Positions 9,042-27,765 of a stretch of DNA of 64,000 bases are shown here, piece by piece (position 1 is the first letter of the stretch; every line of letters starts with the position of its first letter). A program made the position numbers and the translations under genes. The DNA comes from Escherichia coli (GTDB taxonomy: Bacteria > Pseudomonadota > Gammaproteobacteria > Enterobacterales > Enterobacteriaceae): assembly GCF_030013595.1 (NCBI RefSeq), contig NZ_CP122768.1; one strand, given 5' to 3'. Below the pieces are notes generated by a model. It was not told the origin of the DNA. It saw only the letters and a program-made list of their open reading frames with translations, and ran no database searches.

Positions 9042-9070
9042 AAAAAGCCTGCTAAAAAGCAGGCTTTTTT
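9042..9070. terminator. Bidirectional intrinsic terminator between ldtA and asnV
   Basis: Hairpin aaaaagcctgct/agcaggcttttt flanked by A-run and T-run. Confidence 0.7.
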
Positions 9071-9075
9071 GAATT

Positions 9076-9151
9076 TGGCTCCTCTGACTGGACTCGAACC
9101 AGTGACATACGGATTAACAGTCCGCCGTTCTACCGACTGAACTACAGAGGA
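9076..9151 (-). tRNA. asnV: tRNA-Asn (GUU)
   Basis: Reverse complement is the 76-nt E. coli tRNA-Asn with CCA end; anticodon loop cuGUUaa. Confidence 0.95.
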
Positions 9152-9405
9152 ATCGTGTGAACGGGGCGCATATTAATGGCAGTGCATGGTGATGTCAAAG
9201 GGTGAAATGCATTTTTTTGTTTGTTTGCTGTCAATTTCAACAAAGTGGTGAGCTTTCAATCTTATTGGTAATGAACCATCGTGGTGCATACCCTCCTTTT
9301 ATGGGGCAGGGGAACGCGACAGCTGATAAAAAGAGCCAATGACGAACCTATCATAATCTCTTATTTGACAGTTGGTTAGCTTGTACATCAACGCCAAAAT
9401 AAAAC

Positions 9406-25300: not shown

Positions 25301-27376
25301 TTTCTTTCCAGTCTGTAGTGACACCAGGTTTCACGTTGTCGATGCTGACTGCGGTATTCAGTTGCTGTTTTTGTTCCTTAACAGGTTTGTCATTTTCATT
25401 TCTCAGTTCTACCGTCACCTCGATAGGATTGCCGGAGAGATAACGGTCCTTATCAATTTTAATTGACGAGTGAGTTCGGGATGACGAAACAGAAATGATA
25501 TTCACCACGGCGGGGGCTTTAGCCGCATCCACACCGTTCAGCTGTGGCATCAGCGTTAGCGTGCCAGACATCGCTCCTGTGGTCAGGACTTGGGTATAGC
25601 TTCCGTCACCATTATCTTTCCAGTCAGAAAGGGTGATGTCCTGAACACCTTCGTGACGCGTCGAGAGCACCAGCCCGATAACAGGATTACCTGCTGCATC
25701 ATGAGCAATAAAAGTCAGTGTGGCGGTTGAATGGGAATCCGCGCTCAACGTCTGGGTACTTAACGATACCGAGGAATCTTTCTGGCTTAGCGTAGGTGCC
25801 TGAACGACTACCATGCTCTGTTCACGATTCGAATAATTGCCTTTGACATCTTCAGCGGTGACTTCAATCGGCCAGGTGTTATCGGTTTCTGGCGTACTGG
25901 TGAACCGGTACGGCGGCAGGGTAACCAGAATATCTTTACCCGTTGTGACCACTTTACCACCGGCAGCTTCCAGAGCGGTGGCTTCGACGTTATAGCCTTT
26001 CAGGGCATATTTGGTTTGTAGCGACGAAACCAATGATTTCACTTCTCCTGACTTCCCTGTCACGGGGTCTGTCAGGGTCAGGCGAACCAGTTCTTTTTTG
26101 CGATATTCCAGAACGATGTTGTTGTTGCGATCCACCAGATCATAACGGCTGCCTGCAAGGCTACGCCGTGCAGCGACTTCATTCGGGTCAAGCTGTTTCT
26201 GCATTGCGCTGCCAGGTTGCCAGGTAAAATCGACGGCAAAACGGGTGTCATTTTCACCCTGTTTACCCTGGCGTTGCTCCGCGCTGAAGGTCATCAGCGG
26301 GAAGGGGTATAGTTAAGTCCAGCGGTTATGGCATGAGGATTACTTTGCCGATCATCTTTATCGAACAGGGCCACTTCATCGCCATAATACTGTTCATAGA
26401 CCAGTTTACCGCCAAGGTGCGGCCAGGCGGGTAACCAGCCTTCTGCGCGTACATCCCAGCCATTGGCCGGGCGTGCTTCATAATCGTTGTCCAGTTCAGG
26501 TGCGCTGCGCCAGTTGGTCAGTCGCAAATAGCCGTTACTGCTTAATTTAAGATAGTCGCGCCAGTACTCCGCGCCAATGCCGGCGCGGGAGTGGTAACGG
26601 CTAAGATCGTGGTCGAAAAAGAAGTTGATGCCCGACATCCATGTGGGAGTGAAATGACGCCAACCCAAGCCGTTGTTAATCTGCGTACGCTCGTCAGTAC
26701 GGTGGAGAGTATGCTGGCTGAAAAAGAGATTATCAGGCGTTTCATACCACGGATGGAGAAAATCGAACTGGGAGTTCTTCAGGCTAAAATCTTCATCCAC
26801 GCCCAGCGTGATTCTTGCGGTACCGAAGCGGCTTAACCAGTCTGTCATTACCCCTGAAGCCTGAGAAGAGGCCCATCCACGCGCCATGTTTGCCGCTTGC
26901 TCGCTGTTCATCTCTTCGGCGAGCAAAGACCCGATTTGCTGTGAAGTACTGGCTATCTGTTGCTCGAGGTTGTCACTGCTATTACCCGGCGGCGGGGTTA
27001 AATTTTTTTCACTAACTTGTGCCGGGACATCCAGTTCATCCCCCTGGCGGACATTATCAAAACCTCGAGCAAACGTACGAAACTGGTTGAGTTTGCGTAA
27101 CTCAGCCAACGAAATACCGAAACGTTCGGCAACGCTTTGGGCCGATTCCAGCGCTCCAAGGGTGTAGGGCACCGTATTGGCATTTGCAATGGCGATTTGT
27201 GCAGGAACTGGTTGTTGGGTTGCAGCGTTTATCACACCTTGTGCTGCCGCAGCCATAGGGAACGCAAGTTGAGTTACCAGGCAGATACCCGCAGTTAAGC
27301 GGCGTAGTTTAATTCCCATCCCGCATAAAATTTGTCTGTCATTTATTTCTTCTCCACTTCTCTTCTTCGTAGCCAT
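19395..27376 (-). pseudogene. yeeJ: Inverse-autotransporter (intimin/invasin-like) adhesin with Big-domain repeats, split by a frameshift near 26294..26300
   Basis: N-terminal module (signal, LysM-like region, barrel) ends ...AGLNYTPSR-stop; the passenger continues in the +1 frame (FPLMTFSAEQRQ...) for 2299 aa; the two frames abut within a few bases. Confidence 0.8.
23040..24260. repeat. Tandem near-identical 609-bp duplication (203 codons, two Big domains) inside yeeJ
   Basis: gcggtaaccgtatg[t/c]gtgcc recurs at 23101 and 23710; the protein shows two consecutive near-identical 203-aa units beginning VTFVADKD[S/N]A[V/I]VVLQTSKAE; boundaries approximate. Confidence 0.7.
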
Positions 27377-27689
27377 GCTTACCTTCCCTGAACGAGCTAA
27401 CATAAATGCGCCCTTTCTAGCACAGCGAAAAAAAGTAAATCCTGATAGCAATATGATTGAAAATTAATAACTTTTCGTTAGGCAGTTTTGGGTGTGAGTT
27501 GCAAGAGGGGAGACTACTGAATTACTCAAGTTTTATAATCGAGGGGAAAATGGTGATGGCGTCCATAGCAAAACGCCCTCAACCATTAAGGTCGAGGGCG
27601 CTTAAGATGTCAAAAACCCGCTATCCGTTAAAAAGCAATGCTCAACTAAGGTCAGTGACATTGCGCTAAAAAAGCGAATTTTTAGAATT

Positions 27690-27765
27690 TGGCTCCTCTG
27701 ACTGGACTCGAACCAGTGACATACGGATTAACAGTCCGCCGTTCTACCGACTGAACTACAGAGGA
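27690..27765 (-). tRNA. asnT: tRNA-Asn (GUU)
   Basis: Identical 76-nt tRNA-Asn sequence, with the same 5' leader as asnV. Confidence 0.95.

What the first reader, a model, noticed from the sequence alone, without database searches (positions are those of the whole stretch)
9042..27765. Four identical tRNA-Asn genes with conserved flanks in alternating orientation across 19 kb
asnV, asnU, asnW and asnT are sequence-identical. asnV and asnT share the same 5' leader (atcgtgtgaacggggcgcatatta), and asnV and asnU have similar terminator hairpins. The copies are in direct and inverted orientation relative to one another, which makes them substrates for recombination-driven deletion or inversion of intervening genes (nac/cbl, yeeO, and yeeN through yeeJ). 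tRNA-Asn genes are known integration sites for HPI-type islands; none is integrated here, since each tRNA is directly followed by core sequence.
Basis: partly seen in the sequence, partly recalled or inferred. Interest (0 to 1): 0.2.

Follow-up and report, generated by a model that had tools for sequence, protein, structure and literature searches.

The report
E. coli asparagine tRNA gene cluster
These are the four well-known identical asparagine tRNA genes of E. coli (asnV, asnU, asnW, asnT) in their usual, island-free K-12-like arrangement, and a survey of 5,426 genomes shows that the copies do occasionally recombine to flip or delete the genes between them, as partly published already.

Summary
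The window has four identical 76-nt tRNA-Asn(GUU) genes at 9076-9151(-), 11483-11558(-), 13307-13382(+) and 27690-27765(-). Order and spacing match K-12 asnV/asnU/asnW/asnT. The orientation is -,-,+,-, so it is not strictly alternating.

Each copy is its own transcription unit. The "shared leader" is really the -10 box, a GC-rich discriminator and a short leader.

No intact island occupies any copy: there is no integrase and no repeat of the tRNA 3' end. However, about 230 nt after asnW is a decayed relic of the integrase end of a P4-type island.

I counted chimeric junctions (upstream flank of one copy, tRNA, downstream flank of another) in 5,426 complete E. coli genomes:
- asnV/asnW inversion: 265 genomes; an island integrase follows the partner tRNA in all five examined.
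- asnU/asnW (yeeO) inversion: about 32-34 genomes, in island-free loci.
- asnW/asnT inversion (14 kb): 1 genome.
- Clean nac-cbl deletion between asnV and asnU: 4 genomes.
- Larger deletions: 0.

The cluster, its use as an island integration site and the asnV-asnW inversion are already published (PMC8209727). Interest is low.

The parts
9076..9151 (-). asnV, tRNA-Asn(GUU)
   Evidence: ARAGORN; Rfam RF00005, 72.6 bits; synteny with K-12 asnV (ldtA | asnV | nac)
9152..9198 (-). asnV promoter and leader: -35 TTGACA (9198-9193), -10 TAATAT (9175-9170), GC-rich discriminator, about 11-nt leader.
   Evidence: promoter scan; pattern search; alignment A1
9042..9069 (-). asnV intrinsic terminator hairpin (12-bp stem plus U-run)
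   Evidence: terminator scan; fold -18 kcal/mol, z -4.7
11483..11558 (-). asnU, tRNA-Asn(GUU)
   Evidence: synteny cbl | asnU | yeeO
11575..11602 (-). asnU promoter (TTGACA, 16 nt, TAAGAT)
11448..11476 (-). asnU intrinsic terminator hairpin, similar to that of asnV
   Evidence: alignment; fold -19.5 kcal/mol, z -5.6
13260..13288 (+). asnW promoter (TTGACA, 17 nt, TAATAT). The leader at 13283-13306 matches the asnV/asnT leader at 21 of 24 positions
13307..13382 (+). asnW, tRNA-Asn(GUU), the only copy on the + strand
13383..13610 (+). Relic of the tRNA-proximal (attL/integrase 5') end of a P4-type integrase island. It has two hairpins, of which 13444-13472 plus a T-run acts as the asnW terminator, followed by a decayed start of an int gene (ATG lost, homology to about codon 50)
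   Evidence: blastn 74% over 201 nt (E 1e-27 to 2e-29) plus 82% over 45 nt to the tRNA-to-int region of the island at asnT in Ec-U9-1, and 75% to the island in 2016C-3878; alignment A3; fold. The same flank is present at 94-96% identity in K-12 and all other loci checked
27690..27765 (-). asnT, tRNA-Asn(GUU), the usual HPI integration site, unoccupied here
   Evidence: yeeJ side follows directly
27766..27812 (-). asnT promoter and leader (TTGACA, 17 nt, TAATAT); 27766-27789 is identical to the asnV leader
9477..11446 (+). nac and cbl, the segment between the direct repeats asnV and asnU. It is deleted in 4 natural genomes and inverted together with yeeO in 265
11721..13206 (+). yeeO, the segment between the inverted repeats asnU and asnW. 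It is inverted in about 32-34 natural genomes
13837..27376 (-). yeeN, amn, shiA, yeeL-like glycosyltransferase and yeeJ, the segment between the inverted repeats asnW and asnT. It is inverted in 1 natural genome (ET5)

Best explanation
This is the standard E. coli asn tRNA cluster (asnV, asnU, asnW, asnT) in its K-12-like state, with no intact island at any copy.

Each of the four identical tRNA-Asn(GUU) genes is an independent single-gene transcription unit. Each has its own sigma-70 promoter: a perfect TTGACA -35, a TAATAT or TAAGAT -10, and a GC-rich discriminator typical of stable-RNA promoters. asnV, asnU and asnW also have their own intrinsic terminator.

The copies are paralogues of one ancestral promoter-tRNA unit, because homology extends into the promoters. 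Their identity is presumably maintained by purifying selection and gene conversion (inferred).

The 76-107-bp repeats act as occasional substrates for homologous recombination (inferred to be RecA-dependent):
- Exchange between inverted copies flips the intervening segment.
- Exchange between direct copies deletes it.

Every recombinant tRNA still has a promoter on one side and a terminator on the other, so inversions should be nearly neutral. Deletions lose genes and one tRNA copy, and they are rare.

The tRNA 3' ends are also the attachment sites of P4-type integrases (HPI, pks island, ICEs). None is occupied here, but asnW carries a decayed integrase-end scar of a past insertion.
For: - **Identity and synteny:**
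- **Promoters and terminators at each copy:**
- **Repeat structure:** a 125-nt direct family (V, U, T) and inverted arms of 84-107 nt at 96-99%.
- **No island here:** no extra copy of the tRNA 3' end, and no integrase-like ORF by tblastn in the window.
- **Exchange inside the repeats happens in nature.** Counts are genomes among 5,426 in which at least 80% of an 876-nt chimeric junction query lies in one place:
  - up_V+down_W: 265.
  - up_U+down_W: 34, and the reciprocal up_W+down_U: 32, in the same strains.
  - up_T+down_W: 1.
  - up_U+down_V: 35, of which 4 are clean nac-cbl deletions.
- **Annotation and flank-BLAST of fetched loci confirm the structures**.
- **Island-free case:** LD27-1 has the yeeO inversion with no island at any of its four asn tRNAs. 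The three annotated deletion strains have no island next to the hybrid tRNA. A resident asn-island integrase is therefore not required.
- **Several flank haplotypes carry the same rearrangement.** The yeeO inversion occurs at 99.3, 97.3 and 96.5% identity classes. The deletion strains carry three different ldtA alleles. This suggests recurrent events.
- **Literature:** the asnW-asnU-asnV inversion in pks-positive B2 strains, and pks/HPI use of asn tRNAs (PMC8209727; PMC7545054).
Against: - The recombination pathway (RecA versus integrase) cannot be read from sequence, because the repeats are identical and the crossover point is invisible.
- All five asnV/asnW-inverted genomes examined have an island integrase next to the partner tRNA. 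No genome combines both island-free reciprocal junctions: up_W+down_V occurs only in SE15, which has a different structure. This fits an integrase- or island-linked mechanism for that class better than plain homologous recombination.
- Counts are genomes, not independent events, and the collection is heavily biased towards clinical clones.
- Gene conversion and near-neutrality of the inversions are inferences and were not tested.
Confidence: 0.85

Rival explanations
1. The rearrangements, at least the asnV/asnW inversion, are made by site-specific recombination. A P4-type island integrase (pks, HPI or ICE) would recombine the 3'-end core of one tRNA-Asn, or an island attR, with the core of an inverted tRNA-Asn copy. 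General homologous recombination would not be involved.
For: - None of the 265 genomes with up_V+down_W appears to have an island-free partner junction. up_W+down_V is found only in SE15, which lacks up_V+down_W.
- All five examined have an integrase immediately 3' of the partner tRNA: pks in Nissle, HH45 and EcN_Sk, and different islands in JE86-ST05 and KL53.
- In non-inverted genomes, an island at asnV is seen in only about 5 of 40 evenly sampled genomes (rough estimate).
- PMC8209727 also proposes that the inversion accompanied pks insertion.
- An attR x attB inversion would give exactly the observed structure (inference).
Against: - The yeeO inversion and the nac-cbl deletions occur in loci with no adjacent island. 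LD27-1 has none at any of the four copies.
- Most of the 265 genomes probably descend from a few ancestors (the B2 pks clade), so the association rests on about three lineages.
- Homologous exchange, either after island integration at asnV or before integration, gives the same final structure.
Confidence: 0.3
2. The hybrid junctions in other genomes are assembly artefacts. Assemblers may mis-join at the 76-nt identical repeats, so the cluster would in fact be structurally invariant.
For: Identical repeats are classic sites of misassembly. Some records in the collection are lower-quality long-read assemblies; HH45, for example, shows many frameshifts.
Against: - A 76-107-nt repeat is far shorter than long reads, and shorter than most paired-end inserts.
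- The same rearrangement recurs in dozens of independently sequenced genomes from different laboratories, with reciprocal junctions present together.
- The asnV/asnW inversion was confirmed independently in the literature.
- nac-cbl is absent altogether from 8 genomes.
Confidence: 0.03

Closest known systems
E. coli K-12 asnT-asnW-asnU-asnV tRNA-Asn genes (b1977, b1984, b1986, b1989)
   Same: Four identical tRNA-Asn(GUU) genes with the same neighbours (mtfA, yeeJ...yeeN, yeeO, cbl-nac, ldtA). The relative orientations are the same. The asnW-asnU (1,900 bp) and asnU-asnV (about 2,484 bp) spans are the same.
   Different: The window is the reverse complement of the K-12 map. It is about 97% identical, not K-12 itself. 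It carries the long yeeJ variant (+905 nt) with a frameshift.
asn-tRNA-integrated islands: HPI (asnT, rarely asnV), pks/colibactin island (asnW, asnU, asnV), ICEEc1; ICEKp at four tRNA-Asn sites in Klebsiella
   Same: The same attachment targets, namely the 3' ends of these tRNA genes (PMC8209727; PMC7545054; PMC6045662).
   Different: None is present in the window. Only a roughly 230-nt integrase-end relic remains, downstream of asnW.
Published inversion of the 4.3-kb asnW-asnU-asnV segment in pks-positive B2 strains (configuration 1A; Auvray et al. 2021, PMC8209727)
   Same: I recover it in Nissle 1917 and 264 other genomes.
   Different: The paper found this orientation only in pks-positive B2 strains. 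Here it also occurs with non-pks islands (JE86-ST05, KL53). I did not find the other exchange classes in the papers I read: the yeeO-only inversion, the asnW/asnT inversion and the nac-cbl deletion.
Repeat-mediated chromosomal rearrangement between rRNA operons, IS copies or other tRNA/tuf paralogues in enterobacteria
   Same: Identical dispersed paralogues serve as substrates for inversion or deletion. Orientation determines the outcome (general knowledge).
   Different: The repeats here are very short (76-107 bp) and lie within 19 kb. The events are small and local, and do not rearrange the replichores.

Membership tests
tRNA-Asn(GUU) gene | Cloverleaf with GTT anticodon, scoring above the curated tRNA model threshold | tested here: met
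   ARAGORN, anticodon gtt at position 34; Rfam RF00005, 72.6 bits against a gathering score of 29, for all four copies
E. coli asnT/asnW/asnU/asnV cluster | Four identical copies in the order mtfA-asnT-yeeJ...yeeN-asnW-yeeO-asnU-cbl-nac-asnV-ldtA with K-12 orientations | tested here: met
   Alignment; nearest-genome annotation; MG1655 annotation and flank BLAST
Occupied asn-tRNA island site (HPI / pks / ICE) | P4-type tyrosine integrase gene immediately 3' of the tRNA | tested here: not met
   tblastn of an asn-island integrase against the whole window gave no hit better than E 0.4. ldtA, cbl, yeeN and yeeJ follow the tRNAs as in K-12
Occupied asn-tRNA island site (HPI / pks / ICE) | Direct repeat of the tRNA 3' end (attR) bounding the island | tested here: not met
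   Only the four full genes match the 25-mer (up to 3 mismatches) or the 16-mer (up to 2 mismatches)
Degraded island remnant at a tRNA site | Sequence homologous to the island's tRNA-proximal arm and integrase 5' end directly after the tRNA | tested here: met
   For asnW only: window 13383-13610 against the Ec-U9-1 and 2016C-3878 islands (alignment A3)
Repeat-mediated recombination substrate | Identical repeats longer than the minimal homology for RecA recombination (about 25-50 bp, from general knowledge) | tested here: met
   76 nt identical; extended arms of 84-125 nt at 81-99%
Repeat-mediated recombination substrate | Natural genomes carry hybrid junctions (flank of one copy, repeat, flank of another) with reciprocal partners | tested here: met
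   with loci checked
Repeat-mediated recombination substrate | Dependence on RecA, as opposed to integrase | not testable with these tools
   The crossover point inside identical repeats is invisible; this needs genetics

The most novel reading that the evidence does not exclude
The asn cluster may be a small recurrent 'shuffling' hotspot with two mechanisms. Plain homologous exchange would produce the island-free yeeO flips and nac-cbl deletions. Island integrases would drive, or select for, the asnV/asnW inversion for any asn-integrating island, not only pks. The integrase-end scar fixed downstream of asnW would then show that an island occupied asnW before E. coli diversified and donated the present asnW terminator.
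Probability: 0.3. Interest if true: 0.25.

Novelty: already known. Interest (0 to 1): 0.12.

Why it matters
The main value is for annotation and for correct naming of island integration sites. The tRNA names asnW, asnU and asnV are assigned by position or by flank, so inversions make 'pks at asnW' and 'pks at asnV' the same physical site. The census gives a quantitative picture of how often 76-bp repeats rearrange a bacterial chromosome in nature: roughly 6% of complete E. coli genomes, dominated by one clade. It changes no current understanding.

Tried and rejected
- **Junctions not found.** up_W+down_T (the island-free form of the asnW/asnT inversion), up_T+down_V and up_T+down_U (large deletions) each gave 0 of 5,426 genomes.
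- **SE15 as a clean asnV/asnW inversion: rejected.** It is the only up_W+down_V genome. It has an inverted duplicate of asnW plus a 3' yeeO fragment replacing asnV, with one non-tRNA breakpoint.
- **up_U+down_V as 35 deletions: rejected.** Thirty of these genomes belong to one lineage (2016C-3878, MRY15-117) that keeps nac-cbl beyond two islands, in a complex arrangement I did not resolve. SL112 lost nac-cbl by a deletion that does not end in the tRNAs.
- **H35 (VTB96929v): rejected as a hybrid.** Breakpoints at the leader end suggested a hybrid, but it is the native order with islands at asnV and asnT.
- **attR remnants and integrase ORFs in the window:** none found.
- **asnT terminator:** not convincingly found (z -1.2).
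- **Not attempted:** a phylogeny to count independent events.

Full report
**1. The observation**

ARAGORN finds four tRNA-Asn(GTT) genes at 9076-9151(-), 11483-11558(-), 13307-13382(+) and 27690-27765(-), plus tRNA-Ser(CGA) at 28757-28846(+). Rfam's tRNA model scores all four Asn genes at 72.6 bits.

The four 76-nt sequences are identical. Their 25-nt 3' end occurs four times in the window, against 0 expected.

asnV and asnU are followed by closely similar terminator hairpins: 12-bp stems at -18 and -19.5 kcal/mol, with z -4.7 and -5.6.

The repeat finder summarises the geometry as one direct family (asnV, asnU, asnT; 125 nt) and three inverted pairs with asnW (84-107 nt, 96-99%). The orientation is therefore -,-,+,-, not literally alternating.

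**2. What it is**

The annotation of the closest genome (pig isolate HCP5S3_I2, 99.9% identical) and of K-12 MG1655 gives this order:

cobUST-ldtA | asnV | nac-cbl | asnU | yeeO | asnW | yeeN-amn-shiA-yeeL-yeeJ | asnT | mtfA-serU

This is the K-12 map read backwards. The asnW-asnU span is identical (1,900 bp) and the asnU-asnV span nearly so (2,483 against 2,485 bp).

Each copy has its own sigma-70-like promoter, with a perfect TTGACA, a 16-17-nt spacer and TAATAT (TAAGAT for asnU). That 24-mer is really the -10 box, a GC-rich discriminator (GCGCCCC) and about 11 nt of true leader.

The -35 box is invariant in all four copies and homology runs through the promoters. The copies are therefore duplicates of a whole promoter-tRNA unit.

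**3. Island occupancy**

No intact island is present:
- There is no second copy of the tRNA 3' end.
- tblastn with an asn-island integrase finds nothing in the window.
- The downstream flanks are those of K-12.

One nuance emerged from a side result. The first roughly 230 nt after asnW (13383-13610) are homologous to the tRNA-to-integrase region of P4-type islands that sit at asn tRNAs in other strains. The match is 74% over 201 nt and 82% over a further 45 nt, with E 2e-29 (alignment A3). It includes a decayed start of the int reading frame, with the ATG lost.

This flank is shared at 94-96% by K-12 and every other locus examined. It is therefore an old scar that has become 'core'. It supplies the hairpin and T-run that end asnW.

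**4. Test of the recombination idea**

A megablast of window 8000-28800 against 5,426 complete E. coli genomes found only 1,375 genomes with at least 80% of the region in one place. Breakpoints piled up at the tRNA 3' ends and inside yeeJ.

To separate island insertion from exchange between copies, I built 876-nt chimeric queries. Each consisted of 400 nt upstream of copy X, the tRNA, and 400 nt downstream of copy Y. A genome counts only if at least 80% of the query lies in one place, which the native arrangement cannot give.

| Junction (meaning) | Genomes |
|---|---|
| up_V+down_W (asnV/asnW inversion) | 265 |
| up_W+down_V (its island-free reciprocal) | 1 |
| up_U+down_W (asnU/asnW inversion) | 34 |
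| up_W+down_U (its reciprocal) | 32 |
| up_U+down_V | 35 |
| up_T+down_W (asnW/asnT inversion) | 1 |
| up_W+down_T | 0 |
| up_T+down_V | 0 |
| up_T+down_U | 0 |

The nac-cbl segment itself is present in 5,418 genomes.

**5. Verification on fetched loci (annotation plus flank BLAST)**

- **LD27-1:** a clean flip of yeeO between asnU and asnW. It has no island at any of its four asn tRNAs.
- **Nissle 1917, HH45 and EcN_Sk:** the whole asnV-asnW segment is inverted, and the pks integrase follows the ldtA-proximal tRNA. This is the published configuration 1A.
- **JE86-ST05:** the same inversion with a different, non-pks island.
- **KL53:** a double inversion with yet another island.
- **ET5:** the 14-kb yeeN-yeeJ block is inverted between asnW and asnT.
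- **Esc20, AH20K059 and MEI3O-23:** ldtA | Asn | yeeO | Asn | yeeN, a clean nac-cbl deletion that leaves a hybrid tRNA. CNR20180903 has the same signature in the table.
- **The other 30 up_U+down_V genomes:** one lineage with a complex arrangement that I did not resolve.
- **SL112:** a deletion that does not end in the tRNAs.
- **SE15:** an inverted duplication with one non-tRNA breakpoint.

**6. Mechanism**

*Shown.* Exchange points lie inside the 76-84-nt repeat. Reciprocal junctions co-occur. The same rearrangement sits on different flank haplotypes: identity classes of 99.3, 97.3 and 96.5% for the yeeO flip, and three ldtA alleles among the deletion strains. Island-free loci rearrange too.

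*Inferred.* General (RecA-type) homologous recombination between short identical repeats is the default mechanism. Inversions should be nearly neutral, because each recombinant tRNA keeps a promoter and a terminator. Deletions are rarer because they remove genes and one tRNA copy.

For the asnV/asnW class a rival deserves weight. None of the 265 genomes appears to have an island-free partner junction, and all five examined have an integrase there. Only about 5 of 40 evenly sampled genomes have an island at asnV in the native orientation (a rough estimate). An integrase-catalysed attR x attB inversion would give the identical product. Sequence alone cannot decide between the two.

**7. Comparison with the literature**

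The four asn genes are textbook K-12 features. HPI at asnT (rarely asnV) and pks at asnW are standard (PMC7545054). Klebsiella ICEKp uses four tRNA-Asn sites (PMC6045662).

Auvray et al. 2021 describe pks at asnW, asnU or asnV, and the inversion of the 4,309-bp asnW-asnU-asnV segment. They found that orientation only in pks-positive B2 strains (PMC8209727).

My census reproduces that result. It adds that the inversion also occurs with non-pks islands. It also adds three further exchange classes: the yeeO flip, the asnW/asnT flip and the nac-cbl deletion. I did not find these in the papers I read, but they are incremental.

**8. Limits**

- Counts are genomes, not events, and the collection is clone-biased.
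- The chimeric test misses any junction where an island lies on the downstream side.

**9. Verdict**

Interest is low.

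Noticed in passing
window 13383-13610: The 'core' spacer after asnW begins with a roughly 230-nt relic of a P4-type island's tRNA-proximal arm and integrase 5' end. It is conserved in K-12 and the other strains checked, and it provides the asnW terminator hairpin.
   Followed up: partly
window 19395-27376 (yeeJ), frameshift near 26300: yeeJ is the long variant (about 905 nt longer than in K-12). It is split into two frames by a 1-nt deletion in a C-run (CCCC here, CCCCC in HCP5S3_I2). 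That closest genome instead carries a TAG stop about 130 nt upstream, so either there were two independent inactivations or these are sequencing errors.
   Followed up: partly
window 23044-23343 and 23653-23952: A 300-nt direct repeat (93% identical, 609 nt apart) inside yeeJ, presumably repeated Ig-like domains.
   Followed up: no
window 29294-29515: About 1 kb of K-12 sequence between zinT and serU, including yodB, is replaced here by about 220 nt. yodB appears to be absent.
   Followed up: partly
window 28847 onward, compared with L007 28868-36794: serU is unoccupied in the window. The 99.9%-identical neighbour HCP5S3_I2 has a prophage integrase directly after serU.
   Followed up: no
window 758-1526 and 4610-5700: An IS1 copy (95% identical to IS1B). 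The cobU-proximal CP4-44-like junction matches K-12 at 99.8-100% but lacks K-12's IS5H insertion.
   Followed up: no
window 46218-46304 (+) and 37795-37884 (-): The small RNAs DsrA (102.5 bits) and RseX (97.7 bits) are found at their expected K-12-like positions.
   Followed up: no
L003 (2016C-3878) 1-20000; L008 (MRY15-117): A lineage of about 30 genomes has ldtA | Asn | yeeO | Asn, then two facing integrase islands, then Asn | nac-cbl followed by a T6SS/RHS region with no tRNA after cbl. This multi-step rearrangement of the asn cluster was not resolved.
   Followed up: partly
L005 (SE15) 3024-4644: SE15 carries an inverted duplicate of asnW plus the last 922 nt of yeeO in place of asnV, with one breakpoint outside any tRNA.
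   Followed up: partly
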